From the NCBI GenBank assembly GCA_964514595.1, contig CAZEQZ010000001.1, forward strand, positions 107,914 to 171,913: DNA of 64,000 bases, written 5' to 3'. The position numbers and the translations under genes are program-made. This DNA comes from an uncultured Candidatus Saccharibacteria bacterium. Lineage in GTDB: Bacteria; Patescibacteriota; Dojkabacteria; SC72. A model generated the notes under the pieces. The model made no database searches. It was not told the origin of the DNA and saw only the letters and a list, made by a program, of their open reading frames with translations. Below, piece by piece: positions 1 to 11,656 of this stretch; positions within the stretch are counted from its first letter, which is position 1, and each line of letters begins with the position of its first letter.

Positions 1-357
1 GTAGTAGGGGAAGTTTTTTATGGCCTGTGCGTTCTGTACTAGTATTTTGTTACTTGGATTCTTTTTGTTATATTCATCTATATGGTCTATGATAAATCTC
101 TTGAAATGATATTCCTTCTCATCATCTAGGCTATGACCTCTAAATATAATGTGGGAGTATTCTAAAACGTCCTTCCTATTAGCCATAATAGAAGTTTTTC
201 CATTTCCAAAAAGAAACTCTAACTGGTCATTGTATACGAAATCATATTCTATATCTCTCTTCTTTAATTCTTCTACTAACCTAGCAGAACCTGTGGGAAT
301 TTCTCCCATTGTATCTACCTGTACTCTCTGTCTTTTGTCTATGATTAAGTATTTCAT
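1..357 (-). CDS. Partial CDS (5' end at 357, runs off window start). Hypothetical, with an 'FLFGNGKTS' motif reminiscent of the Mur-ligase P-loop (GTNGKTT). Possibly a split cyanophycin-synthetase C-terminal-like domain.
   Basis: Reverse-complement translation from ATG (complement of 355-357) is open to the window edge: MKYLIIDKRQRVQVDTMGEIPTGSARLVEELKKRDIEYDFVYNDQLEFLFGNGKTSIMANRK... It lies 1 nt downstream of the ATP-grasp gene at 359..2050 on the same strand. It is not in the ORF track because it is truncated. Confidence 0.4.
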   Translation of the reverse strand, partial: MKYLIIDKRQRVQVDTMGEIPTGSARLVEELKKRDIEYDFVYNDQLEFLFGNGKTSIMANRKDVLEYSHIIFRGHSLDDEKEYHFKRFIIDHIDEYNKKNPSNKILVQNAQAIKNFPYY

Positions 358-358
358 A

Positions 359-2050
359 CTATATGATTTTAATTTTATCTATTAACCCTTTTCTTTGGTA
401 TTTTCTTATTATCTTAAAATTCTCCTTCTGTGTACTTTGCTGTTTACTTACTATCACTAAGTCTATTCTATCAAATCCTAAGCCATTTTCTCTCACATCT
501 TGCCAATCTCTATGATGTATTAGAATCGCATCTAGGGAAGCATTAATTTTAAGAGCTTCGATAGCCTTCTGCTTATCTACACCCGAATTTACCTTAAGAG
601 AGTTAAAAAGTATATCTCCATCTTTAAACTCTCCTATATATTCCTCATCTGTTAGGTATGAACCGAGTATACTTTTCTGTCTTAATAGGGTGGGGATGTC
701 TTTTGTAAATTGTCCGATGGTGACTATTCTTTTTGTTTTATTCTCTTTGAGTAACTTCTCTATATATATGTCTCCAACATACTCTCTACTTTCTCCAATT
801 ACAGGGAATAGATTAAGGTATGCTTCTGGCATAGTATTAATTTCTAGAATGCCTCCATTTTCCTTTGTGAGAGGCTTACTAATATCGTTGCAGAGTATAT
901 CAGCCCCAATTACAAATGCATGGATGGATTTAGCTATGCTTTCTACGATGTATTTAATCTCGGGACCTACCTTATCTGTATAGTCCTCTGTTATACCTCC
1001 TTGGCTCATACTGGCAACCTTTCTGACAGTTACCTTCTCATCTTTCTTAGGAATATACTGAAGGGAGAGGTTTTGCTCCTTGAGGAATTCTAGGAGTGGT
1101 TCATCTATCCTGATTGGTTTTAATGTGTGAGCGGGGTTAGATATATCTCTTCTGGGATCATTGTTTGTTTCTTCTATAAGTTGTTCTATGTTCTTTTTAC
1201 CATCTCCGATTATAAATGCGGGGATTCTTTTTGTGACAATTTCCAATTTGCCATCTATCACAAGAAGTCTGTAGTCTTCTCCCTGTACCTGCTCTTGCAT
1301 CATAATTTTCTTTTGCCATAGGGGTCTTATCTTTTCATCTGTTTTCTCCTTAGCCCATCTGTATGCTTTCTTTGCTTGATCTATAGTTTTAATATTCATA
1401 GATACACCTTTCCCACCTGTGAGTCCTGTTGGTTTGATAACTAGGGGCTTTTGATATAGATCCCAGGTCTTCTCAATATCATCTTCGCTTTCTAATACCT
1501 GCCATTTGGGTATTGGGAGGGCGAGCTTTTCTATTATTTGATTAGATGCCCATTTGTCTCTCTGTATCTCTTTTGCAATTTTAGAATCCTGACTAGAGGA
1601 TATGGAGTACATTATTTGAGAACCTTTGCCACATCCTAATGTATAGTGACGATTTAATGTCTTGGTATATCCAAGCATCCTGTCCATGACTAGGGTGGGG
1701 GTTACCTCATATCCTTTTTTAAAGGCAGAATTAAGGAGAGTTAAGGTGGACATGGAAGCAACTCGGTACTTTATCACCTCATTAACAATATATTCCTTTG
1801 CGTCTTCGTATGTTATTTTGTCTATAGACAGGTCTATTAATGTATATGCGATTTCTTTCCAAAGAGAAGGAAGCTTTGATTCTAATAGTAATTGATCTTG
1901 TTGAAATTTGAAGGATTTAAGAAATAGGGGATGGAAGTTTTGTATTAATTTCAAAAGCTCTTTTACTGACTCTGTCTCATTTATTTTAACAGTAATTATG
2001 GAGGTTTCTGATTGTAGGTTGAGTCCTTGTAGTGTGGTTATATCTTTCAT
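359..2050 (-). CDS. ATP-grasp amidoligase, cyanophycin synthetase (CphA) N-terminal-half-like. It has an ~200-aa N-terminal extension and no Mur-ligase half.
   Basis: 563-aa ORF. Segments such as KPLVIKPTGLTGGKGVSMNI, EDYRLLVIDGKLEIVTKRIPAFIIGDGKKNIEQLIEETNNDPRR and ADILCNDISKPLTKENGGILEINTMPEAYLNLFP align, from memory, with the CphA ATP-grasp domain (PIVLKP..G..G, HRVLVINGKLVAVSERIPAHVTGNG..TIEELIQETN, GIDVVTPDITKPLTEVDGVIVEVNAAPGFRMH). Confidence 0.7.
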   Translation of the reverse strand: MKDITTLQGLNLQSETSIITVKINETESVKELLKLIQNFHPLFLKSFKFQQDQLLLESKLPSLWKEIAYTLIDLSIDKITYEDAKEYIVNEVIKYRVASMSTLTLLNSAFKKGYEVTPTLVMDRMLGYTKTLNRHYTLGCGKGSQIMYSISSSQDSKIAKEIQRDKWASNQIIEKLALPIPKWQVLESEDDIEKTWDLYQKPLVIKPTGLTGGKGVSMNIKTIDQAKKAYRWAKEKTDEKIRPLWQKKIMMQEQVQGEDYRLLVIDGKLEIVTKRIPAFIIGDGKKNIEQLIEETNNDPRRDISNPAHTLKPIRIDEPLLEFLKEQNLSLQYIPKKDEKVTVRKVASMSQGGITEDYTDKVGPEIKYIVESIAKSIHAFVIGADILCNDISKPLTKENGGILEINTMPEAYLNLFPVIGESREYVGDIYIEKLLKENKTKRIVTIGQFTKDIPTLLRQKSILGSYLTDEEYIGEFKDGDILFNSLKVNSGVDKQKAIEALKINASLDAILIHHRDWQDVRENGLGFDRIDLVIVSKQQSTQKENFKIIRKYQRKGLIDKIKII

Positions 2051-2058
2051 TTTACTGT

Positions 2059-3045
2059 TTAAGAATTTATATATTTATCTCTGATATATTCCATAATTGG
2101 AATAGCAACTTTCACAACTTTTCCCCTATCTACCTTGTAGTGAAGTCTGAGTCCAGGATTATAGTTAATTTCATTTATGGCTAGTTTAGATGGTTTGGAG
2201 ATATTTTCTGCTATTATGTCCACTCCGCCAAATTCTGCACCAACAACTCTTACCGCTTTTATGGCTATCTGTTTGTAGTAGTCGTGTACTTCAGACATGC
2301 ACTCCTGTGTGCTACCACCTGTGGTTAAGTTACAGTTGTATCTAAGTATTATCTCTTCGTCTTTATCTGGTACATAGTCTAGATCTAGGCTAGAGCGTTG
2401 TAGTTTGAGTACCACCTCGTTATCAATATTTATTGGCTTCAATCTGTTATTTTTTCTCTGTAAGTTCTTTTGTGTGATTAGCTCCCTTATAGTATTCTTG
2501 CTATTGCCAATAACATGGGCTGCTTTCCTTCTAACTACACCAATAACCTTCTCTCCTACGACTAAGAATCTGTAGTTTTCACCATGCATAAACTCCTCCG
2601 CTAAAACCTTGCTTTTAGATATAGATTTAGAATTCTCTAAAGCTATTTCATATGCCTTTAACACCTGTTCTTCTGTTTGGGGCAAGATAGTGACTCCTAT
2701 ACCGCCTAACTGTTGTGTTGGCTTTAATACAATATCTTTGTACTTTCCAAAGAACTTAATTGCATCTATAGGGGCTTGTATGTCCTCTTGTATTGGTACT
2801 GGTAGATCTTTATCTTTTAGTACTAAGTTAGTTAAGTGTTTTCTTTTACATATAGTAGTACTTGTTGCGGGGGTTAGAGGTGTTACAGTATTAATTATGA
2901 ACCAATGTTTCTTTTTGTATTCAAATTTAGCAAGCAAGCTTCTTATTAAAATTTCGTATTTAATATCCAATTCATCAGCTGCCTCTAGGTAGTAGGCGAG
3001 GTGTACGTTTCCTGCTTCTTTTAGATAGTATTCGTATGATTTCAT
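2059..3045 (-). CDS. ATP-grasp amidoligase, second CphA-N-like paralog (328 aa).
   Basis: VLKPTQQLGGIGVTIL glycine-rich loop, ENYRFLVVGEKVIGVVRRKAAHVIGNSKNTIRELITQKN and VDIIAENISKPSKLAINEINYNPGLRLH match the same CphA ATP-grasp core regions. There is an 8-nt gap to the downstream gene and 4 nt to the upstream gene. Confidence 0.65.
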   Translation of the reverse strand: MKSYEYYLKEAGNVHLAYYLEAADELDIKYEILIRSLLAKFEYKKKHWFIINTVTPLTPATSTTICKRKHLTNLVLKDKDLPVPIQEDIQAPIDAIKFFGKYKDIVLKPTQQLGGIGVTILPQTEEQVLKAYEIALENSKSISKSKVLAEEFMHGENYRFLVVGEKVIGVVRRKAAHVIGNSKNTIRELITQKNLQRKNNRLKPINIDNEVVLKLQRSSLDLDYVPDKDEEIILRYNCNLTTGGSTQECMSEVHDYYKQIAIKAVRVVGAEFGGVDIIAENISKPSKLAINEINYNPGLRLHYKVDRGKVVKVAIPIMEYIRDKYINS

Positions 3046-3049
3046 GTTT

Positions 3050-4498
3050 TTATTTAAATGTTTTACTCGTATCTATTAGATATCCTTTCAGTTCATTTCT
3101 TCCTATAACTACAGGATATATGGAGTCTTCTATTATTATCATCTCTATATCTTTAATTTCACCAGATATCTTGGTTTTGACATCTACTACCGGTCTTATT
3201 TTAACTCCATTTTCCTCTACGACTCTTGCGACTCTTTTGAAAATTTTATTGTTAAACATCTCCTTATTTTCATCAATATATTTTTGAGCTTCTTTGGGAG
3301 ATTCAAATTTTTCAGGAATGGGCAAAGAGTTGAAGAATTTAATTGTTGGCATGAATCCTATTCTATTGGCCATGCTTTTTGATATACGAGATGTTAATAT
3401 CCCTGTATCCATGAATGAATTGGTGATCTCTTTTTTCAAATCTTTTAATTCTTTATCTTCGTTATAGTACAGAATTATCTTCTCATTGATATTAACAACT
3501 TTCCTCCCACTAATTGCCTCTATGCTTTCCTCTACCTCCCCACCAAAAAGATTCTTAGCTACTCTGATCCCATGCTTTATACTTTTTATTTGTAGTCCTT
3601 TGACCTTTTCTAATCTCCACCTAAGGCCTGTTCTGTTTGCAACCTGTATACCTAATCCTGGCCTGGCATTTAATTCAAATACAACAGGCCCCTTATCTCT
3701 ATCTAGTGCAATATCTACACCTATATATCCAAGCTTACTAACTTTTTGACATACCAAGGCTATTCTTAATAACTCATCCCAGAAAGGAATTTGTATACCA
3801 CTAAGTTTTTTGTTCTCTTTTAGATCTGTTGTGGAGTCTATAATCTCATATGTGTCACTAAACAATGACTTAGGTGCCATCTGCATAGAGTATGTTGTTA
3901 TACCTGTACTAATGTCTATACCTGTACATATAGCTCCAGAGTGAAGATTTGCAGTACCGTTGGATCGTTTTGTTGGTAATCTAGTCATTGCCATTATTGG
4001 AACCCCATTAAAACAGATAAGTCTAATATCAGGAACACCTCGGTATGAGTACTGTTTGAGTAGGGGGTCTGTCTTTATTCGTTCCTCTATTATAGCTATG
4101 TCTGTTTTAGAACCCATCGAGAATCTTCCTTCTAATATGTTTTCTATGTGGAGTGTAATGTCTCTTTTATTCATATTCTCTCCACTAGGTCTAATCCATA
4201 CATTCTCGCCTTTCTTTTTGCCATAGAAGACTATTATTCCATTTCCTCCAGTACCTTTGTTAGGTTTGATAACAAAGCTTTTAGGGAGGGAGTCCCAATC
4301 TAGAAATCGCAACTGTTTTTTATTTTTGATTAGCTTATAGACTTCAGGAGATTTTATCCCCTCCTTGGCAAGGACCTTCTTGGTAAGGATTTTGTTGTCT
4401 GCAATACTTTTTGCAGTCGGAGAATTATACGGACGAATATATTCCTGATTTCGTCTATTTAATCCTAGTATTTCTTTGTATTTATTGCTTAGTAACAT
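3050..4498 (-). CDS. RimK-like alpha-L-glutamate-ligase-related ATP-grasp fused to a C-terminal retropepsin-like (clan AA, DTG) peptidase domain.
   Basis: 482-aa ORF. N-terminus ILGLNRRNQEYIRPYNSPTAKSIADNKILTKKVL and VIKPNKGTGGNGIIVF are typical of RimK-related ligases. The C-terminal ~130 aa contains FMDTGILTSRIS, i.e. D-T-G followed by T-S as in putative-ATP-dependent-zinc-protease / retropepsin-like domains. It overlaps the 7TM gene by 17 nt. Confidence 0.65.
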   Translation of the reverse strand: MLLSNKYKEILGLNRRNQEYIRPYNSPTAKSIADNKILTKKVLAKEGIKSPEVYKLIKNKKQLRFLDWDSLPKSFVIKPNKGTGGNGIIVFYGKKKGENVWIRPSGENMNKRDITLHIENILEGRFSMGSKTDIAIIEERIKTDPLLKQYSYRGVPDIRLICFNGVPIMAMTRLPTKRSNGTANLHSGAICTGIDISTGITTYSMQMAPKSLFSDTYEIIDSTTDLKENKKLSGIQIPFWDELLRIALVCQKVSKLGYIGVDIALDRDKGPVVFELNARPGLGIQVANRTGLRWRLEKVKGLQIKSIKHGIRVAKNLFGGEVEESIEAISGRKVVNINEKIILYYNEDKELKDLKKEITNSFMDTGILTSRISKSMANRIGFMPTIKFFNSLPIPEKFESPKEAQKYIDENKEMFNNKIFKRVARVVEENGVKIRPVVDVKTKISGEIKDIEMIIIEDSIYPVVIGRNELKGYLIDTSKTFK

Positions 4499-5243
4499 TT
4501 TCTTTTTCGGATGTTATTGATTTAAATCTGAATAGATCTTTCACTCTAAGACCTTTGAATTGACCTATTAACAAATTAACAAATATTAGTAGAGGTACGA
4601 TCCAAAGATTCTCCAACATATATCTTGATATATAATCTCGACTGATTGCATACCACCCTATAGTTGAGATAATGAGTGTACTAAGAAGTATCATGGCTGA
4701 TGTTTTAAGAGATTTCTGTACATACTGTTTTATGAAAAAATCCGAGAGTGCAGCGATTGATATAACAGCAAGTGGGGGTATTTGTGCCATGTTTTCTAAT
4801 CCCAGACCGTATCGATTGATTAACAGAAAGAATATCACTAGGGATATAGATAGGAGACAGTAGTTAATTGCTATTCTTGTGATGTAGTGCATTCTAATTC
4901 TCTTGATTATTGAGTAGGAGAGTAGGGTAGTTAGTATAACGATTGTAGTTACAGATAGACCATACTTCAAACCTGTATATGTGTATGCAATAGCCAGTAT
5001 TATTGGTGCATATATTCCGTATGTTTTGGAACCAAATATGTACCTAGCTATACTTACAATTGTAGCCAATATGGTTATTGCAACAAGTAGCTCTAGCATC
5101 TGTTTTGATACTCCGTTATCTAATATCCATTGAGTAAAAGAAGAGTATTCCATATATCTAAGTTGATAATTTATTATAATGGCAGATTCCGATGTAATTA
5201 TACTTCTTTTGTATATATCTTGTCGATTAAAAGGAAAGACCAC
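4482..5243 (-). CDS. Polytopic (about 7 TM) membrane protein with no soluble domain; 7TM-receptor-like partner of the ligase cassette. Start uncertain: a GTG at 5243 lies inside a terminator hairpin, and the alternative ATG at 5153 gives MEYSSFTQW...
   Basis: 253-aa ORF with about seven hydrophobic helices (LLVAITILATIVSIA, IYAPIILAIAYTY, LSVTTIVILTTLLSY, INYCLLSISLVIFFLLI, IPPLAVISIAALS, AMILLSTLIISTIGWYAI, LWIVPLLIFVNLLIG). It is translationally coupled to the RimK-like gene. Confidence 0.5.
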   Translation of the reverse strand: MVFPFNRQDIYKRSIITSESAIIINYQLRYMEYSSFTQWILDNGVSKQMLELLVAITILATIVSIARYIFGSKTYGIYAPIILAIAYTYTGLKYGLSVTTIVILTTLLSYSIIKRIRMHYITRIAINYCLLSISLVIFFLLINRYGLGLENMAQIPPLAVISIAALSDFFIKQYVQKSLKTSAMILLSTLIISTIGWYAISRDYISRYMLENLWIVPLLIFVNLLIGQFKGLRVKDLFRFKSITSEKENVTKQ

Positions 5244-5260
5244 CCATTGGGTGGTCTTTT
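5236..5260 (-). terminator. Rho-independent-type hairpin downstream of rplL.
   Basis: An 8-bp GC-rich stem (agaccacc / ggtggtct) with a 4-nt loop, flanked by T-runs on both strands. It sits between the rplL stop (5280) and the 7TM gene. Confidence 0.4.
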
Positions 5261-5279
5261 AATCTCATTGTTAAGAAGA

Positions 5280-5684
5280 TTATGCTAATTCAATAGTAGC
5301 ACCTGCTTCCTCGAATTTGCCTTTGATTTCCTCTGCTTCTTCTTTTGCAACACTCTCCTTTACAGTTTGAGGTGCAGAATCTACGAGGTCTTTAGCTTCT
5401 TTGAGTCCTAGTTCTGTTATCTCTCTTACAACTTTAATAACTCCAATCTTGTTAGATCCAGCATCCTTTAATACGATATTGAAAGATGATTTCTCTTCTT
5501 CTGCTGGAGCTGCTTCTGCAACAGGTGCTGCCATAGCAACAGGTGCTGCTGCGCTTACTCCAAACTTGTCTTCCATGACTTTTACAAGATCAGCAAGTTC
5601 TAAGACAGACATTTTCTCTACAATTTCGAGAACTTTTGTACCATTTGCTGAAAGCTCTGGTAATGTTTTTGTCTCTTCTGCCAT
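5280..5684 (-). CDS. rplL: 50S ribosomal protein L7/L12.
   Basis: MAEETKTL...[22 protein letters not shown], an Ala/Pro hinge, and C-terminal [19 protein letters not shown]...[10 protein letters not shown]. Confidence 0.92.
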
Positions 5685-5722
5685 ATTTGTATATTAATTA
5701 AATTAAGTAGTTATTTGTCTAA

Positions 5723-6244
5723 TTAAGCATTCTTCTCAGATATGCCCTTAAGAACCACGGTTAAACCTTTAACATTGCCTGTGACGGCATTCATAAAGCC
5801 GGATAGTGGGGCGTTCATAGTTCCTACTAATTGGCTTAACAACACCTCTCTGGATGGAATTTCTGCAAGTTGCATAACTTTCTCCTCAGATAGGAATTCT
5901 CCCTCATATACTCCACCTTTTGCACTAAGTAATTCTGTTTCTTTCTGTAATTGCTTGATTAATTTTGCAGGAGCAGTTGGGTCCTCGTCAAAATATATTA
6001 CTGCTGTTGGACCATCTAATTCTTGTGTTTGAATAGGTTGTTCTGTCTCTTGTAGGGCGACTTTAAATATACTGTTCTTGACAACGGTATAATTAGAGCT
6101 AATATCTTTTAGTTGAGACTTAAGTTTGGATACAGTTGGTGTATCTGTTTTGTCAGAGCTAACCAAAAAATATCCTACTTTATTTTTTAGAATATCTTTA
6201 TATTTATCCAATAACTCTGTTTTTTGTGTACGAGTTTTTGCCAT
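5723..6244 (-). CDS. rplJ: 50S ribosomal protein L10.
   Basis: 173 aa, MAKTRTQKTELLDKYKDILKNKVGYFLVS..., immediately upstream of rplL. Confidence 0.85.
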   Translation of the reverse strand: MAKTRTQKTELLDKYKDILKNKVGYFLVSSDKTDTPTVSKLKSQLKDISSNYTVVKNSIFKVALQETEQPIQTQELDGPTAVIYFDEDPTAPAKLIKQLQKETELLSAKGGVYEGEFLSEEKVMQLAEIPSREVLLSQLVGTMNAPLSGFMNAVTGNVKGLTVVLKGISEKNA

Positions 6245-6435
6245 ATTATTATATTTTAAATTTGAATGTATATATTACCTCGCAAGGATTTATGTTTGTA
6301 CCTTGTTTCTTAGGTTAATACTAGAGCGATTATATCAGTGTGGTAGGGGTTGGTCAAGAGAGGGTGGTATGTGATATGTCTAGATATAATGATCTATATA
6401 GAGACATAATCGCCATCCTCTCTTTTCCAAATTTG

Positions 6436-6666
6436 TTATTGTTCTTCTTTCAGGTCTCCGTTTTCAAGCTCTATTGTGAGTGTTATAGTATCGCCTAAAG
6501 GGAATCTGATCCACGAGTAGCTGTGAGTTCTTTCGTTGTTTCTTATTAAAACAACTATTGTGTCCGGATCATCCTCCTTCTGTTTTATAGTGATTATGGA
6601 ATTTCCTTCTCTCGGGATACTTATGTGAAGCTTTTTCAACAATGGTAGTATCTCTTGCTTTTGCAT
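6436..6666 (-). CDS. Hypothetical small protein (76 aa).
   Basis: ORF only, with no recognisable motif. It lies in the insertion between rplA and rplJ. Confidence 0.3.
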   Translation of the reverse strand: MQKQEILPLLKKLHISIPREGNSIITIKQKEDDPDTIVVLIRNNERTHSYSWIRFPLGDTITLTIELENGDLKEEQ

Positions 6667-6861
6667 CAGCCTCTCTCTTTCTTTTTTAAGAACAACAAAT
6701 TTTTGAAAGCAGTATTCTACTCCTTAATATGTGAATTGTAAACAGGGGGGACGAGAAGGGAGGGTGATATACAATGTAAATTGTGATGAAAACAATCATC
6801 CTCCCTTATCTTTGTTTACAAACTTACTAGCTTATTGGTTGACGTCTGGGATAAGATATTT

Positions 6862-7257
6862 CTAGCTAATTTGAAAGTTAAGAAGAGCAACCTCCTTCGG
6901 AGGAAGTTTCTTCAACTCTTCAAATAGTAGTCCCTGTATCTTGTCCTCAGGAAGATCCTCAGGGATCTCGCGTTCCATATGATTAAGGAGATTTTGTTCA
7001 AATTCCTCCTCGTTGTCTGCAACGGGGCATTTACTGCCCTGGCATAGTGTCACAGGACATACACAGCACGGATACTTCCAAGCAATCATCAGTAACTCCT
7101 TTGTTTTAATGCGGAAATTTTTAAGAGCAACAGTAAGTTTGTTGCCTATAGATTTTATCTTATAGTGACGGTTTTGTGAAGTGTTAAAGTAGATTGACAT
7201 TCCGTGAGTGATCTGGTAGTATGTGGCTACTAATCTGTGAGTATTTCTGTATGGCAA
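6862..7257 (-). CDS. Hypothetical Cys-rich protein (131 aa; CC-x-C-x5-C-x4-C cluster). Start uncertain.
   Basis: WKYPCCVCPVTLCQGSKCPV cysteine cluster followed by an acidic tail. ORF only. Confidence 0.3.
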   Translation of the reverse strand: MPYRNTHRLVATYYQITHGMSIYFNTSQNRHYKIKSIGNKLTVALKNFRIKTKELLMIAWKYPCCVCPVTLCQGSKCPVADNEEEFEQNLLNHMEREIPEDLPEDKIQGLLFEELKKLPPKEVALLNFQIS

Positions 7258-7526
7258 AATATGAAAATAGACTACAAGTAAGTGTCTCTAATAAGTTACA
7301 TTCTAGACTTAGGGATAGAGCGGAATATCTAGGTGCTTCTTTACCTGAATATGTAAGGTATGTTTTGATGAAAGAAATGGAGAAAGGAGAATTAGAGAAT
7401 AATTCTGAATATATACAACTTGCAAAAGAGAGTTTAGAGGATTCTAGAAAGGGAAAGTTGAAAGAGTTTCCTAATGTAGATGAGGCATTGAAATATCTTG
7501 ATGCTTACGTGCGAAGCGATGAGTAA
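7251..7526 (+). CDS. Type II antitoxin, ribbon-helix-helix (CopG/ParD-like).
   Basis: MAKYENRLQVSVSNKLHSRLRDRAEYLGASLPEYVRYVLMKEM is an RHH pattern. It overlaps the downstream toxin ORF by 8 nt. The ORF track starts it at 7221, but the in-frame ATG at 7251 fits better. Confidence 0.55.
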   Translation: MAKYENRLQVSVSNKLHSRLRDRAEYLGASLPEYVRYVLMKEMEKGELENNSEYIQLAKESLEDSRKGKLKEFPNVDEALKYLDAYVRSDE

Positions 7527-7812
7527 TTATAAGATAGGATTCAACCAAAAATTCCTTAGAAAAATAAAAACTATTTATAAAAAGGATAAAGTTCTGTATG
7601 CCAAATATCTTAAGGTTATAGAGAGGGTGGGAAAAGATCCTTTTGCCGGTGGGTTGAGGACCCATTCTACAGGAGTGATAGATCACGGGAGAATCTTTAG
7701 CTCTAGGGTAACTGGTGATATTAGGGTTATTTGGTGTATAGAGCAGAAAGAAAAAAGGATAATACTATTAGATATTGGTGGGCACGAGGGAGGCAAGAAA
7801 GTTTACAAATAA
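7519..7812 (+). CDS. Type II toxin, RelE/ParE superfamily.
   Basis: MSNYKIGFNQKFLRKIKTIYKKDKVLYAKYLKVIERVGKDP...GDIRVIWCIEQKEKRIILLDIGGHE matches the characteristic RelE/ParE C-terminal pattern. The 8-nt start/stop overlap with the antitoxin is typical of TA pairs. Confidence 0.55.
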   Translation: MSNYKIGFNQKFLRKIKTIYKKDKVLYAKYLKVIERVGKDPFAGGLRTHSTGVIDHGRIFSSRVTGDIRVIWCIEQKEKRIILLDIGGHEGGKKVYK

Positions 7813-7813
7813 A

Positions 7814-8503
7814 TTACTCTTTCTTAGCGTAGCTTATCTTTACACTAGGTCCCATAGTTGGTGCTAAATGCATTCTTTTTATAGCTTGCATATATCCTTT
7901 TCCAATAGCACTCTCTACTGCTGATATAGCCTCATGAATATTCTCGATTAATTTTTCATCCTCCATATCTAACTTCCCAACACTCATATGTATTACGCCT
8001 GAAGCATCGCACGTAAATGTCTGTTTTCCTTTCTTGTATTCTTCTACTACTGAGGCAATATCCTCAGTTACAGTTCCTACCTTCGGATTAGGCATAAGGC
8101 CCTTAGGACCTAATTCTTTACCTAATACAGCAATCTGTGGCATAACAGAAGGTGTAGCTATTGCAACATCAAATTCAATCTTACCATCCTTAACATCCTT
8201 CATAAGTTTATCTAATCCTACAAAATCAGCACCAGCCTTTTTAGCAACCTCATCCTTATCTGGTGTTGTAAATACAGCTATCTTAACACTCTTTGTAGCT
8301 GTAGAGTGGGGTAGTGATACGCTTCCCTTTATTGATTTAGGATCCTTATCTTTAGGTATATTAATATCAATATGTGCCTCTAGCGAACCTACAAACTTTG
8401 AGTATGAAAGACTCTTAACTTTTTTTACCCCCTCCTCTAAAGAGTATGTTTTGGATCTATCTAAATCTTTTGACACTTTTTTATAATTTTTTCCTCTTCT
8501 CAT
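7814..8503 (-). CDS. rplA: 50S ribosomal protein L1.
   Basis: 229 aa, ...FDVAIATPSVMPQIAVLGKELGPKGLMPNPKVGTVT... Confidence 0.9.
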   Translation of the reverse strand: MRRGKNYKKVSKDLDRSKTYSLEEGVKKVKSLSYSKFVGSLEAHIDINIPKDKDPKSIKGSVSLPHSTATKSVKIAVFTTPDKDEVAKKAGADFVGLDKLMKDVKDGKIEFDVAIATPSVMPQIAVLGKELGPKGLMPNPKVGTVTEDIASVVEEYKKGKQTFTCDASGVIHMSVGKLDMEDEKLIENIHEAISAVESAIGKGYMQAIKRMHLAPTMGPSVKISYAKKE

Positions 8504-8520
8504 TCTAGTACTAGTATTAA

Positions 8521-8946
8521 TTAAAGTTCTACATCAACGCCCATCTGTTTTGCTGTCCCAGCTATTATTTTAGCTGCTTGGTCATAGTCAGATGTATTTA
8601 AGTCTGGCATCTTAATGTCTATTATTTTTTTAACCTGTTCCTTAGAAAGCTTTCCAACTTTGTTTAAGTTAGGTTTGTCAGAACCCCTTTTGATTTTTAA
8701 CTCCCTCCTTATCAACTCAGATGTGGGAGGAGTTTTTAGTATGAAATCAAAGGATCTGTCTTCGTATATAGTCAATATCACAGGAGTCAGGATACCATTA
8801 CTCTCCTTTGTTCTTTCATTGAATTGAGAGCAAAAATCTTGTGTATTAATACCGTATGGAGCTAATGTTGGACCTATTGGAGGTGCCATTGTAGCTTGTC
8901 CAGCTGGTATTGTTATTTTTATAACTTTTTTAATCTCTTTTGCCAT
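8521..8946 (-). CDS. rplK: 50S ribosomal protein L11.
   Basis: MAKEIKKVIKITIPAGQATMAPPIGPTLAPYGIN... Confidence 0.92.
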   Translation of the reverse strand: MAKEIKKVIKITIPAGQATMAPPIGPTLAPYGINTQDFCSQFNERTKESNGILTPVILTIYEDRSFDFILKTPPTSELIRRELKIKRGSDKPNLNKVGKLSKEQVKKIIDIKMPDLNTSDYDQAAKIIAGTAKQMGVDVEL

Positions 8947-8970
8947 ATTAGTATAAACTATTTAAATATT

Positions 8971-9552
8971 CTAAAGCTTAGTAACTTGAGAAAGATCAAG
9001 CTCTACAGGAGCCTCTCTACCAAGGAATGAGATGAGGACTTTTATCTTTCCTTTAGTAGTATCTATCTCTTGTACACTTCCTATGAAGTCTGCAAATGCA
9101 CCATCAGTTATTTTAACTGCTTCTCCAACACTAAATGATGTCTTAAATGATGGCTGTTCCACTTCCATGAATTTTGTAATTGCCATTACCTCAGATTCTG
9201 CCAAAGGCTTTGGATATTTATCTGTTTTAACAAAGCCCCTTACCCCCTCTGTATTAGTTACTATATCCCATGTTTTATTGTCTAATTCCATCTTGATTAG
9301 AATATATCCAGGAAATATCTTCTCTTCTTTCACATCCTGTTTGCCTTTTTTAACAAAAATCTTCTTCTGTACAGGAACTAATATATCTACAATCTTATCC
9401 TGCATCCCTGTTGCTTCTGCTCTTTGATTTATTTCCTTCTGTATACTATTTTCGTATCCAGTTCTAATATTTAACACATACCACTTAGCATTAGGATTGC
9501 TCTTCTTTTTACTTTTTACTACTTTCTTTTCTTTTTTAATTTCTTTTGTCAT
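8971..9552 (-). CDS. nusG: Transcription termination/antitermination factor NusG.
   Basis: KWYVLNIRTGYENSI... NGN domain, and C-terminal KOW (GEAVKITDGAFADFIGSVQEID). Confidence 0.85.
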   Translation of the reverse strand: MTKEIKKEKKVVKSKKKSNPNAKWYVLNIRTGYENSIQKEINQRAEATGMQDKIVDILVPVQKKIFVKKGKQDVKEEKIFPGYILIKMELDNKTWDIVTNTEGVRGFVKTDKYPKPLAESEVMAITKFMEVEQPSFKTSFSVGEAVKITDGAFADFIGSVQEIDTTKGKIKVLISFLGREAPVELDLSQVTKL

Positions 9553-11582: not shown

Positions 11583-11656
11583 AGCTGGATCTGAGAATCG
11601 AACTCAGGACCTCATTCTTACCATGAATGTGCTCTAACCAACTGAGCTAATCCAGC
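11583..11656 (-). tRNA. tRNA-Thr (anticodon GGT).
   Basis: Reverse complement GCTGGATTAGCTCAGTTGGTTAGAGCACATTCATGGTAAGAATGAGGTCCTGAGTTCGATTCTCAGATCCAGCT, 74 nt; anticodon loop ATGGTAA. Confidence 0.7.

What the first reader, a model, noticed from the sequence alone, without database searches (positions are those of the whole stretch)
3050..4498. RimK-like ligase covalently fused to a retropepsin-like (DTG) domain.
Where this three-gene system has been described, the ligase and the aspartic peptidase are separate ORFs. Here a single 482-aa polypeptide carries both: the ATP-grasp at residues ~1-340, and a ~130-aa tail containing FMDTGILTSRIS, the D-T-G followed by Thr/Ser hallmark. Retropepsins act as dimers, so the fusion implies a ligase dimer that could both extend and cleave a peptide substrate. 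Alternatively, the DTG domain may serve as a substrate-binding module.
Basis: partly seen in the sequence, partly recalled or inferred. Interest (0 to 1): 0.55.

Follow-up and report, generated by a model that had tools for sequence, protein, structure and literature searches.

The report
Peptide ligase fused to retropepsin-like peptidase
A candidate-phylum (Dojkabacteria) bacterium encodes one 482-residue cytoplasmic protein that joins an RloC/RimK-type peptide ligase to a diverged retropepsin-like peptidase, two enzymes that are separate (and in Pseudomonas in different compartments) wherever this little-understood stress-tolerance system has been studied.

Summary
Window 3050..4498 (-) is one 482-aa ORF. 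Residues 1-319 are an RloC-type ATP-grasp ligase (PF14397, E 9e-67). They match an unfused Legionella RloC at 39% identity, and that protein ends exactly at residue 319. Residues 320-332 are a conserved Glu-rich linker. Residues 333-482 are a diverged PF05618 (RloA/RimB-like) retropepsin domain.

Pfam misses the peptidase domain from the single sequence, but other tests recover it:
- hhalign: 99.7% probability, E 1e-26.
- Profile against PDB RloA2 (9g59): E 1.3e-5.
- AlphaFold model (pLDDT 87): its top Foldseek hits are RloA, Lpg0085, Ddi1 and HIV protease.

The fusion is not an artefact. The exact protein lies on 15 contigs, and 47 of 54 Dojkabacteria species genomes carry it as one ORF. dN/dS is 0.01-0.09 in both halves. 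Asp and Thr of DTG are invariant, but Ala after DTG is Ile/Val and RloA's Lys46 is Phe.

A short 7TM gene (RloB without its transglutaminase domain) precedes the fusion, and three more ATP-grasp genes follow. At least 20 further 50%-identity clusters share the architecture, mostly with canonical DTGA. No paper found describes it. Verdict: a new variant of a known system, of moderate interest.

The parts
3050..4498 (-). Whole fusion gene, 482 aa plus stop. It has no signal peptide and no hydrophobic segment, so the protein is predicted to be cytoplasmic.
   Evidence: ORF. The exact protein is on 15 contigs. NCBI and JGI name it only 'alpha-L-glutamate ligase-like protein'. Maximum 19-residue hydropathy is 1.18.
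3542..4498 (-). RloC-type ATP-grasp ligase domain, residues 1-319.
   Evidence: PF14397 at E 9.3e-67. TIGR02291 scores 297.7 bits against a cut-off of 314.2. It is 39% identical to unfused Legionella RloC over residues 10-319. Structural neighbours are ArgX/LysX, RimK, Ddl and CphA1. E275 and N277 are invariant in the family.
3503..3541 (-). Fusion-specific Glu-rich linker GEVEESIEAISGR, residues 320-332.
   Evidence: It lies beyond the C-terminus of unfused RloC. Most positions are at least 90% conserved in 48 Dojkabacteria sequences. GGE.E...G is conserved in about two thirds of the wider fusion family. It is predicted as a helix with lower confidence, pLDDT about 70.
3053..3502 (-). Diverged PF05618 (RloA/RimB-like) retropepsin domain, residues 333-482. 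It contains no cysteine.
   Evidence: hhalign 99.7% probability, E 1e-26. PDB profile hits 9g59, 9g58 and 2pma. Tail model pLDDT 87, with Foldseek top hits RloA, Lpg0085, RloA2, Ddi1 and HIV protease. dN/dS 0.014-0.085. No Cys.
3401..3409 (-). D364-T365-G366, the putative catalytic motif.
   Evidence: Asp and Thr are invariant in 48 of 48 Dojkabacteria sequences, and Gly is kept in 43 of 48. The Asp aligns with the DTG of RloA2.
3236..3361 (-). Helical insertion of about 40 residues (380-421) between the post-DTG helix and the flap hairpin.
   Evidence: Secondary structure of both models. It is present in most fusion-family members and in some stand-alone relatives. It is absent from short forms (P0077, P0128, P0124) and from RloA.
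3188..3196 (-). R435-P-V motif. R435 is the equivalent of RloA R114, a polyglutamate contact.
   Evidence: Arg in 45 of 48 sequences. Aligned with the ERPV of RloA2. The role of R114 is described in PMC12239564.
3095..3106 (-). I-G-R467-N, the retropepsin G-R-N/D motif. R467 is the equivalent of RloA R137.
   Evidence: Arg or Lys in 47 of 48 sequences. Aligned with the LLGR of PF05618 proteins. The role of R137 is described.
4482..5243 (-). Short 7TM protein corresponding to the C-terminal membrane half of RloB, without the periplasmic inactive transglutaminase domain. The probable start is M31 at 5153, giving 223 aa. Its stop overlaps the fusion gene's ATG by 17 nt.
   Evidence: PF14402 at E 2.5e-16. 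The RloB model matches only over positions 298-505 of 508. BLASTP aligns it to Legionella RloB residues 309-411. Overlap shown. Present upstream of the fusion in 47 of 54 loci and in divergent fusions.
2059..3045 (-). Second ATP-grasp gene (328 aa), similar to the cyanophycin-synthetase and GshAB ATP-grasp domains. It starts 4 nt after the fusion gene.
   Evidence: Conserved in 54 of 54 loci.
359..2050 (-). Third ATP-grasp gene (563 aa), cyanophycin-synthetase-like.
   Evidence: Conserved in 53 of 54 loci.
1..357 (-). First 119 codons of a fourth, RimK-like ATP-grasp gene (317 aa in full) that runs off the window start.
   Evidence: The translation is identical to L003 7376-8329. Conserved in 46 of 54 loci.

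Best explanation
**What it is.** The gene encodes a bifunctional cytoplasmic enzyme of the Rlo/Rim type.

**Shown.**
- Residues 1-319 are an intact RloC-type ATP-grasp amidoligase.
- Residues 333-482 are a retropepsin-fold PF05618 domain. It keeps the catalytic Asp-Thr-Gly, the flap hairpin, the G-R-N motif and the two arginines (equivalents of RloA R114 and R137) whose mutation most impairs polyglutamate cleavage in RloA.
- The two are joined by a conserved 13-residue acidic linker.
- The fusion is fixed across Dojkabacteria, and both halves are under strong purifying selection.
- The gene is translationally coupled to a 7TM protein that equals the membrane half of RloB. Three further ATP-grasp ligase genes follow it.

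**Inferred mechanism.**
- The ligase domain uses ATP to add amino acids, most likely alpha-linked glutamate, to a carboxylate acceptor such as a peptide or protein C-terminus, at the cytoplasmic face of the 7TM partner.
- Two fusion chains pair their peptidase domains, as all retropepsins must, to form the Asp dyad. That dyad endoproteolytically trims the acidic chain.
- One polypeptide therefore both writes and erases the modification at fixed 1:1 stoichiometry.
- This hard-wires the RimK-RimB relationship, in which RimB cleaves RimK-made poly-Glu tails and stimulates RimK ATPase.

**How it differs from Pseudomonas.** There RloA is secreted and RloB carries a periplasmic domain. Here everything except the membrane helices is cytoplasmic. 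That fits a Patescibacteria (CPR) cell, for which I assume no periplasm; the envelope type was not checked.

**Substrate specificity has probably shifted.** Phe replaces the Lys46 equivalent, and Ile or Val replaces the Ala after DTG.
For: **Domain identities:**

**Junction.** It lies exactly at the C-terminus of unfused RloC.

**Reality and fixation of the fusion.**
- 15 contigs carry the exact protein.
- 47 of 54 species genomes have it as one ORF.
- All 120 best homologues of the ligase part are 482-497 aa.

**Selection.**
- dN/dS is 0.014-0.085 for the peptidase domain and 0.017-0.050 for the ligase domain.
- D364 and T365 are invariant, R435 is kept in 45 of 48 sequences, and R467 is R or K in 47 of 48.

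**Cytoplasmic location.** There is no hydrophobic segment. There are no cysteines in the peptidase domain, and the paired cysteines are a feature of periplasmic orthologues only.

**Functional coupling of the components, supported by independent fusions.**
- 7TM::ATP-grasp in Halobacterium.
- Tandem retropepsin::7TM (P0112) and ligase::retropepsin::MATCAP or ::YdjC.
- A short 7TM gene immediately upstream in divergent fusion members.

**Published biochemistry.**
- RloA and RimB cleave runs of at least 8 Glu, and R114 and R137 are critical.
- RimB stimulates RimK ATPase and trims RimK-made tails.
- rloB and rloC mutations suppress loss of rloA.
Against: - No biochemical data exist for any fused member.
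- The active-site surroundings are atypical. The residue after DTG is Ile or Val in 30 of the 43 sequences that keep Gly and Ala in only 2. The Lys46 equivalent is Phe in 45 of 48. Gly of DTG is Ser, Ala or Thr in 5 of 48.
- One related cluster representative, P0027, has Asn for the catalytic Asp.
- The peptidase domain carries only a small net positive charge (median +4, range 0 to +8), against up to +26 in some stand-alone relatives. A polyglutamate channel is therefore not assured.
- Dimerisation of the peptidase domains within the ligase oligomer was not modelled.
- The ligase's substrate is unknown even in Pseudomonas.
- Pfam's own name for PF14397 ('sugar-transfer associated') hints at a non-protein acceptor.
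Confidence: 0.6

Rival explanations
1. The C-terminal domain is a retropepsin-derived pseudo-enzyme. It would be a non-catalytic module that binds the growing acidic chain or the acceptor, or that allosterically activates the ligase, as RimB binding raises RimK ATPase. It would not cleave anything.
For: - Ala after DTG is replaced by bulky Ile, Val, Leu, Met, Tyr or Phe. The Lys46 equivalent is lost. Gly is replaced in 5 of 48 sequences.
- P0027 has NTG and P0106 has DSS.
- The domain scores below every curated threshold in Pfam and NCBIfam.
- RimB stimulates RimK ATPase.
Against: - Asp364 and Thr365 are invariant in 48 species, although the domain averages only 67% column identity.
- R435 and R467, the residues most critical in RloA, are retained.
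- 19 of 24 wider-family members have canonical D[TS]GA.
- dN/dS of about 0.06 shows constraint but does not distinguish catalysis from binding.
Confidence: 0.25
2. The fusion is a self-processing polyprotein or an auto-inhibited enzyme. The conserved Glu-rich linker GGEVEESIEAISGR would be an intramolecular substrate or pseudo-substrate of the adjacent acid-specific retropepsin. The peptidase would then either excise itself, as retroviral proteases do, or stay blocked until the linker is displaced.
For: - The linker is fusion-specific, because unfused RloC ends just before it.
- It is among the most conserved segments of the protein.
- It is acidic and lies immediately N-terminal to a domain whose relatives cleave poly-Glu.
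- It is modelled with lower confidence, which is compatible with flexibility.
Against: - RloA needs at least 8 consecutive Glu, and interrupting residues abolish cleavage. The linker has at most two or three consecutive Glu.
- About a third of the wider fusion family lacks the GGE.E motif.
- AlphaFold predicts it as a helix, not an extended strand in a cleft.
- There is no experimental evidence of processing.
Confidence: 0.1
3. The single ORF is an artefact: two adjacent genes merged by an assembly, frameshift or gene-calling error.
For: Some database homologues appear as short stand-alone tails or as 280-aa fragments.
Against: - Those cases trace to N-runs or fragmented assemblies.
- The identical ORF is in independent assemblies.
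- It is intact in 47 of 54 species genomes.
- In the canonical gene order, rloA and rloC are not even adjacent.
Confidence: 0.01

Closest known systems
RloABC system of Pseudomonas aeruginosa and other Gammaproteobacteria (PMC12239564); canonical example here is the Legionella adelaidensis plasmid cassette L062
   Same: It has the same three protein modules: a TIGR02291/PF14397 ATP-grasp (39% identity), a PF05618 retropepsin and a PF14402 7TM module. They sit in one operon, and genetics ties the three together.
   Different: - Here the ligase and peptidase are one polypeptide.
- The peptidase has no signal peptide and no disulfide cysteines, so it is cytoplasmic rather than secreted.
- The 7TM protein lacks the ~300-residue periplasmic inactive transglutaminase.
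- Gene order is 7TM then ligase::peptidase, instead of rloA-rloB-rloC.
- The residue after DTG is Ile instead of Ala, and Lys46 is replaced by Phe.
- A ~40-residue helical insertion is present.
- Three extra ATP-grasp genes follow.
RimK-RimB of Pseudomonas fluorescens (PMC7343187, PMC11957791)
   Same: A cytoplasmic ATP-grasp glutamate ligase works with a cytoplasmic, Cys-free retropepsin that trims the ligase's poly-Glu product and stimulates its ATPase. Functionally this is the closest analogue of a fused writer-eraser.
   Different: - The ligase here is RloC-type, not RimK-type. TIGR00768 scores 56 bits against a cut-off of 143, and the RimK equivalog scores only 14 bits.
- The tail gave no match to the RimB model.
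- A 7TM partner is present.
- There is no evidence that RpsF is the substrate.
Other PF14397+PF05618 fusion proteins in uncultured lineages (for example P0031, P0040, P0081; at least 20 clusters at 50% identity)
   Same: They share the same architecture, the same junction, mostly the same GGE.E linker and helical insertion, and a short 7TM gene directly upstream. The window protein is a member of this family.
   Different: Most of them keep canonical K-x-D-T-G-A and are recognised by Pfam (17 of 24). The Dojkabacteria branch has diverged so far that no source annotates the peptidase domain.
Retropepsins embedded in larger proteins: retroviral Gag-Pro-Pol and eukaryotic Ddi1
   Same: A single retropepsin domain inside a multidomain chain must dimerise in trans to become active. 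The fold matches at Foldseek E 4e-5 to 1e-4.
   Different: The partner domains and substrates are unrelated. There is no evidence of self-excision here.
Tubulin tyrosine ligase (TTL/TTLL) with MATCAP and CCP carboxypeptidases
   Same: This is an ATP-grasp 'writer' of C-terminal amino-acid tails paired with a dedicated 'eraser' peptidase. A MATCAP (PF08014) gene sits convergent to this operon in 39 of 54 loci and is fused to the ligase::retropepsin in P0056 and P0130.
   Different: The eukaryotic enzymes are separate proteins acting on tubulin. Any link here is by analogy and gene association only.

Membership tests
PF05618 / RimB-like retropepsin-like aspartic endopeptidases (RloA, RimB, Lpg0085) | Significant match of the single sequence to the curated family model | tested here: not met
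   There is no PF05618 hit at E<=10. NCBIfam RloA3 scores 21 bits against a cut-off of 210, RloA1 and RloA2 score about 17 bits, and only the C-terminal half is matched.
PF05618 / RimB-like retropepsin-like aspartic endopeptidases (RloA, RimB, Lpg0085) | Homology detectable by profile methods | tested here: met
   - hhalign against 14 stand-alone proteins, 13 of them PF05618 by Pfam: 99.7% probability, E 1e-26, 146 columns.
- Tail profile against PDB: 9g59 at 1.3e-5, 9g58 at 1e-4, 2pma at 0.023.
- Against Legionella RloA: 91.5% probability, E 8.7e-7.
- 17 of 24 full-length family members hit PF05618 directly.
PF05618 / RimB-like retropepsin-like aspartic endopeptidases (RloA, RimB, Lpg0085) | Retropepsin fold | tested here: met
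   The tail model has pLDDT 87 and pTM 0.79. All top Foldseek PDB hits are retropepsins, led by RloA 9g58 at E 8.8e-7 with target-normalised TM 0.53. TM scores are modest because of the extra linker helix and the insertion.
PF05618 / RimB-like retropepsin-like aspartic endopeptidases (RloA, RimB, Lpg0085) | Catalytic D-T/S-G followed by Ala | tested here: inconclusive
   D-T-G is present, with Asp and Thr invariant and Gly kept in 43 of 48. The following residue is Ile here, and Ile or Val in 30 of the 43 sequences that keep Gly, with Ala in only 2. Ala is cited as the retropepsin hallmark in PMC12239564.
PF05618 / RimB-like retropepsin-like aspartic endopeptidases (RloA, RimB, Lpg0085) | Polyglutamate-contact residues K46, R114 and R137 of RloA | tested here: inconclusive
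   The R114 equivalent (R435) is kept in 45 of 48 sequences and the R137 equivalent (R467) is R or K in 47 of 48. The K46 equivalent is Phe in 45 of 48 and never Lys.
PF05618 / RimB-like retropepsin-like aspartic endopeptidases (RloA, RimB, Lpg0085) | Homodimer with the Asp dyad at the interface; D-dependent cleavage of poly-Glu | not testable with these tools
   No multimer prediction and no assay were available. There is only one DTG per chain, and it is the only retropepsin domain in the window.
RloA subfamily (secreted) | N-terminal signal peptide and the conserved disulfide cysteine pair | tested here: not met
   The domain is C-terminal to a cytoplasmic ATP-grasp, the protein has no hydrophobic segment, and residues 333-482 contain no cysteine. 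These features are defined.
TIGR02291 / PF14397 RloC-type alpha-L-glutamate-ligase-like ATP-grasp | Match to the family models | tested here: met
   PF14397 scores 225.6 bits against a cut-off of 31.4, covering model positions 1-277 of 278. TIGR02291 scores 297.7 bits, just under its equivalog cut-off of 314.2. It is 39% identical to a Legionella protein that passes TIGR02291 at 436 bits.
TIGR02291 / PF14397 RloC-type alpha-L-glutamate-ligase-like ATP-grasp | ATP-grasp fold and conserved catalytic/Mg-binding residues | tested here: met
   The full-length model has pLDDT 89.3. Foldseek finds ArgX, RimK, Ddl and CphA1 at E 1e-9 to 1e-10. K78, D262, E275 and N277 are invariant in the family alignment. 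Ligase activity itself was not tested.
RloABC three-gene system | RloB consists of a periplasmic inactive transglutaminase domain plus 7TM | tested here: not met
   Only the 7TM half is present. The RloB model is matched over positions 298-505 of 508 at 40 bits against a cut-off of 900, and BLASTP aligns to RloB residues 309-411.
RloABC three-gene system | Three separate genes in the order rloA-rloB-rloC | tested here: not met
   The order here is 7TM then rloC::rloA in a single gene. The canonical order is shown in L062.
RimK family (TIGR00768 / PRK10446) | Match above the family cut-off | tested here: not met
   TIGR00768 scores 56 bits against a cut-off of 143.4. PRK10446 scores 14.3 bits against 331.
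   It is not among the NCBIfam hits at E<=10 for the tail or E<=1 for the whole protein.

The most novel reading that the evidence does not exclude
The fusion is a bacterial counterpart of a retroviral polyprotein. The strictly conserved acidic linker, which exists only in the fused proteins, would be the peptidase's own intramolecular (pseudo)substrate. Ligase activity, peptidase activity and release or activation of the peptidase would then be coupled through occupancy or cleavage of that linker, giving a self-timed writer-eraser switch at the membrane.
Probability: 0.1. Interest if true: 0.7.

Novelty: new variant of a known kind. Interest (0 to 1): 0.45.

Why it matters
[quoted passage not shown] The published model places the ligase in the cytoplasm and the protease in the periplasm.

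A naturally fused, wholly cytoplasmic ligase::peptidase is independent evidence that the two enzymes act on the same molecule, probably in physical contact. The supporting observations are:
- It is fixed across a whole class of minimal-genome bacteria.
- It is always preceded by the 7TM half of RloB.
- Other fusions join the same modules: 7TM::ligase, retropepsin::7TM and ligase::retropepsin::MATCAP.

It also offers a compact two-gene version of the system for reconstitution. It shows that the transglutaminase domain and secretion are dispensable add-ons.

Finally, it corrects an annotation gap. In none of the Dojkabacteria homologues listed by the searches (120) does a source name or precomputed Pfam hit show the aspartic peptidase domain.

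Tried and rejected
- **Single-sequence scans of the tail.** Pfam gave only sub-threshold noise (gag-asp_proteas 0.048, CooT, SNase). NCBIfam gave weak RloA hits over half the domain. phmmer of the whole protein against PDB found nothing for the tail. This is why profiles and structure were needed.
- **TIGR02281.** No hit.
- **Apparent stand-alone or split homologues (P0014, P0020, P0023).** I examined them as possible evidence that the fusion is sometimes split. They are rejected because L005 and L006 carry N-runs inside the gene and L007 is a fragmented assembly in which even L1 and L10 are broken.
- **Diverse tail alignment A4.** It was too divergent to seed a genome scan, so I used A2, which restricts the taxonomic scan to the Dojkabacteria-type tail.
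- **Iyer et al. 2009 (PMC3268129).** This is the paper that first described the ATP-grasp/7TM-transglutaminase/peptidase neighbourhood. It is not held, so I could not check whether it mentions such fusions.
- **Literature searches for the fusion or the system in Patescibacteria.** They found nothing.
- **dN/dS.** Only 4 species pairs had unsaturated dS, so the estimate is coarse.
- **Small ORFs between rplA and rplJ.** No Pfam match.
Full report
**1. The observation.**
Window 3050..4498 on the minus strand is a single 482-aa ORF. FMDTGILTSRIS begins at residue 362, so the motif Asp is D364. The protein has no hydrophobic segment: the maximum 19-residue hydropathy is 1.18, and the first 30 residues average -1.05. 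I therefore read it as soluble and cytoplasmic.

The exact sequence lies on 15 contigs from ENA, JGI, Logan and NCBI assemblies, the longest 760 kb. The sources name it only 'alpha-L-glutamate ligase-like protein'.

**2. The N-terminal half.**
- Residues 15-300 match PF14397 (ATPgrasp_ST) at E 9.3e-67. Residues 7-301 match TIGR02291 at 297.7 bits, just under its cut-off of 314.2.
- RimK-family models score far below threshold.
- The plasmid collection supplied a canonical unfused cassette from Legionella adelaidensis, L062. It has rloA (152 aa), rloB (508 aa) and rloC (314 aa), each confirmed with the NCBIfam Rlo models.
- That RloC aligns with window residues 10-319 at 39% identity and ends at '...MFA' opposite the window's '...NLFG319'. 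The ligase domain is therefore 1-319, and everything beyond it is extra.
- The full-length AlphaFold model is confident (pLDDT 89.3, pTM 0.73). Its ligase part is closest to ArgX/LysX, RimK, Ddl and cyanophycin synthetase. No solved structure contains both domains.

**3. The tail.**
Single-sequence tests fail. There is no PF05618 hit at E<=10, and the NCBIfam RloA models hit only weakly over the C-terminal half.

With homologues the picture is clear.
- The tail has 22 close relatives at 50-67% identity, from WS6/Dojkabacteria, with D-T-G invariant. One distant relative, P0023, has KIDTGANSTSIN and a precomputed PF05618 hit.
- A profile of these tails (A2) hits PDB 9g59 (P. aeruginosa RloA2) at E 1.3e-5, aligned from DTG to the C-terminus. 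It also hits 9g58 (RloA) at 1e-4 and 2pma (Lpg0085) at 0.023, followed by Ddi1.
- hhalign against 14 stand-alone proteins, 13 of them PF05618 by Pfam, gives 99.7% probability and E 1e-26 over 146 columns. Against the Legionella RloA alone it gives 91.5% and E 8.7e-7.
- The AlphaFold model of the tail has pLDDT 87 and pTM 0.79. It retrieves only retropepsins from the PDB: RloA, Lpg0085 and RloA2 first (E about 1e-6), then Ddi1, HIV-1 protease and rickettsial APRc.
- TM scores are modest, about 0.53 on the target. The query carries a linker helix and a ~40-residue helical insertion (residues 380-421) between the post-DTG helix and the flap hairpin.

**4. Is the peptidase likely to be active?**
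I compared 48 Dojkabacteria sequences.
- Asp364 and Thr365 are invariant, and Gly366 is kept in 43.
- R435, in the 'RPV' motif, is kept in 45. R467, in 'IGRN', is Arg or Lys in 47.
- These two arginines correspond to RloA R114 and R137, whose mutation most impairs polyglutamate cleavage and complementation.

Three features are atypical.
- The residue after DTG is Ile or Val in 30 of the 43 sequences that keep Gly, and Ala in only 2. Ala is the retropepsin hallmark.
- The equivalent of RloA K46 is Phe in 45 and never Lys.
- Five species have DTS, DTA or DTT.

In the wider fusion family, 19 of 24 members have D[TS]GA, usually preceded by Lys or Arg. P0027 has NTG and P0106 has DSS. The peptidase domain has no cysteine, like cytosolic RimB and unlike periplasmic RloA.

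dN/dS on the four species pairs with unsaturated dS is 0.014-0.085 for the peptidase domain and 0.017-0.050 for the ligase domain. The domain is clearly functional. Catalysis is likely but not proven, and specificity has probably shifted.

**5. The fusion is real, old and widespread.**
- A genome scan found the Dojkabacteria-type tail in 54 species-representative genomes. 47 have ligase and tail in one ORF of at least 450 aa, and the other 7 are cut by contig ends or N-runs.
- All 120 best homologues of the ligase part are 482-497 aa, and none has a PF05618 annotation.
- Apparent split genes were N-runs or broken assemblies.
- A profile search of 1.84 billion representatives found 265 hits. 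At least 20 clusters at 50% identity are 459-511 aa with the tail at about residue 310 to the end. Of 24 aligned full-length members, 23 hit PF14397 and 17 hit PF05618.
- The architecture therefore already exists in Pfam-annotated data. The Dojkabacteria branch is a diverged, unannotated part of it.

**6. The linker.**
Residues 320-332 (GEVEESIEAISGR) lie beyond the end of unfused RloC. Most positions are at least 90% conserved in Dojkabacteria. The GGE.E...G pattern is present in about two thirds of the wider family. The linker is modelled as a lower-confidence helix. An acidic, fusion-specific, conserved linker next to an acid-specific peptidase suggests a pseudo-substrate or self-processing role. 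However, RloA needs at least 8 uninterrupted Glu, so I rate this reading low.

**7. Context.**
The gene is the second of a tight minus-strand operon directly downstream of rplJ-rplL.
- **7TM gene (4482..5243).** The probable start gives 223 aa, and its stop overlaps the fusion gene's ATG by 17 nt. It matches only the membrane half of RloB and lacks the periplasmic inactive transglutaminase.
- **Downstream ATP-grasp genes.** Three follow: 328 aa, 563 aa, and a 317-aa gene cut by the window start.
- **Conservation across the 54 loci.** The 7TM gene is present in 47, the second ATP-grasp in 54, the third in 53 and the fourth in 46. A convergent MATCAP-like peptidase gene is present in 39.
- **Divergent fusion members.** They also have a short 7TM gene immediately upstream.
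- **Other natural fusions tie the same modules together.** These are 7TM::ATP-grasp in a Halobacterium plasmid, a signal anchor plus two retropepsin domains plus 7TM (P0112), ligase::retropepsin::MATCAP (P0056, P0130), ligase::retropepsin::YdjC (P0052), and retropepsin::ATP-grasp_4 in the reverse order (P0164).

**8. Mechanism.**
*Shown:* domain identities, the junction, conservation, the cytoplasmic prediction and operon membership.

*From the literature:*
- RimB and RloA are dimeric retropepsins that cleave runs of at least 8 Glu.
- RimB trims RimK-made tails and stimulates RimK ATPase.
- Loss of rloB or rloC suppresses loss of the RloA proteases.

*Inferred:* the fusion is a writer-eraser enzyme. 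Its ligase extends an acidic peptide chain on an unknown acceptor at the cytoplasmic face of the 7TM partner. Its peptidase domains, paired between two chains, trim that chain.

The all-cytoplasmic layout resembles RimK-RimB in topology but uses Rlo-type parts. It would suit a cell without a periplasm, which I assume for Patescibacteria from general knowledge and did not check.

Rivals are a non-catalytic binding or activating module (0.25), a self-processing or auto-inhibited polyprotein (0.10) and an artefact (0.01).

**9. Novelty and verdict.**
None of the three Rlo/Rim papers I read mentions a ligase-peptidase fusion. Full-text searches found no report of the system in Patescibacteria. The 2009 Iyer et al. 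paper that defined the gene neighbourhood is not held, so prior mention there cannot be excluded.

Fusions of operon partners are common, and this architecture is visible in domain databases. It is therefore a new variant of a known system rather than something categorically new.

Its value is as comparative evidence about how the poorly understood Rlo system works, as a minimal version for reconstitution, and as an annotation correction. Interest 0.45.

Noticed in passing
L063 3167-4921 (+), Halobacterium sp. DL1 plasmid CP007061.1: An unannotated 584-aa ORF fuses the 7TM module (PF14402, E 2.8e-24) directly to an RloC-type ATP-grasp (PF14397, E 1.6e-59). This is an archaeal fusion that links the membrane component to the ligase and places the 7TM C-terminus on the cytoplasmic side.
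   Followed up: partly
P0112 (487 aa): A signal anchor is followed by two tandem retropepsin domains (a possible built-in pseudo-dimer) and then the 7TM module. Here the retropepsins take the place of the inactive transglutaminase on RloB-like proteins.
   Followed up: partly
P0056 (916 aa), P0130 (784 aa); L003 9062-10189 (-); just beyond the window start: Some relatives are triple fusions of ligase::retropepsin::MATCAP-like metallopeptidase (PF08014). In Dojkabacteria a separate MATCAP gene lies convergent to the operon in 39 of 54 loci. This echoes the eukaryotic TTL/MATCAP writer-eraser pair.
   Followed up: partly
P0052 (688 aa), P0103 (854 aa), P0164 (557 aa): Three further architectures appear: ligase::retropepsin::YdjC-like deacetylase, ligase::retropepsin plus an unassigned ~400-aa C-terminal region, and retropepsin::ATP-grasp_4/LAL_C2 in the reverse order with a different ATP-grasp family.
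   Followed up: no
P0027 (501 aa), P0106 (474 aa): Two fusion-family members have a degenerate active site: NTG in place of DTG, and DSS. The peptidase domain may have become non-catalytic in some lineages.
   Followed up: no
L062 1981-2439, Legionella adelaidensis plasmid NZ_LR134414.1: The RloA-type retropepsin of a canonical rloABC cassette is annotated 'RimK/LysX family protein'. That name belongs to the ligase, so this looks like a misannotation.
   Followed up: yes
window 4482-9552 (-): The operon sits directly after nusG-rplK-rplA ... rplJ-rplL on the same strand, where rpoB and rpoC usually follow (from general knowledge). L10 and L7/L12 lie upstream on the same strand in 36 and 37 of the 54 loci, though not always immediately adjacent to the 7TM gene. 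I could not tell whether this reflects co-transcription or just conserved gene order in small genomes.
   Followed up: partly
window 7221-7526 (+) and 7498-7812 (+); also 6436-6666 (-) and 6862-7257 (-): Small ORFs fill the gap between rplA and rplJ. Two of them overlap on the opposite strand and by eye resemble an antitoxin/toxin pair. None has a Pfam match at E<=0.01. Similar small genes are called at this position in L001-L003.
   Followed up: partly
window 11583-11656 (-): ARAGORN calls a tRNA-Thr (GGT) here that Rfam's tRNA model does not report at gathering threshold. The other four tRNAs (Trp, Tyr, Thr-TGT, Ser) are found by both tools.
   Followed up: no
L005 ~5800-5850 and L006 ~3100-3150: Two unrelated metagenome contigs carry a short N-run at nearly the same position inside the ATP-grasp gene, just upstream of the ELNARPG motif. 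This splits the gene call in both. It may be masking in the stored data rather than biology.
   Followed up: no
P0094, P0097, P0133, P0140: Stand-alone PF05618 proteins without signal peptides carry the same helical insertion as the fused domains. The 'fusion-type' peptidase therefore also exists as a separate cytoplasmic protein in some genomes.
   Followed up: no
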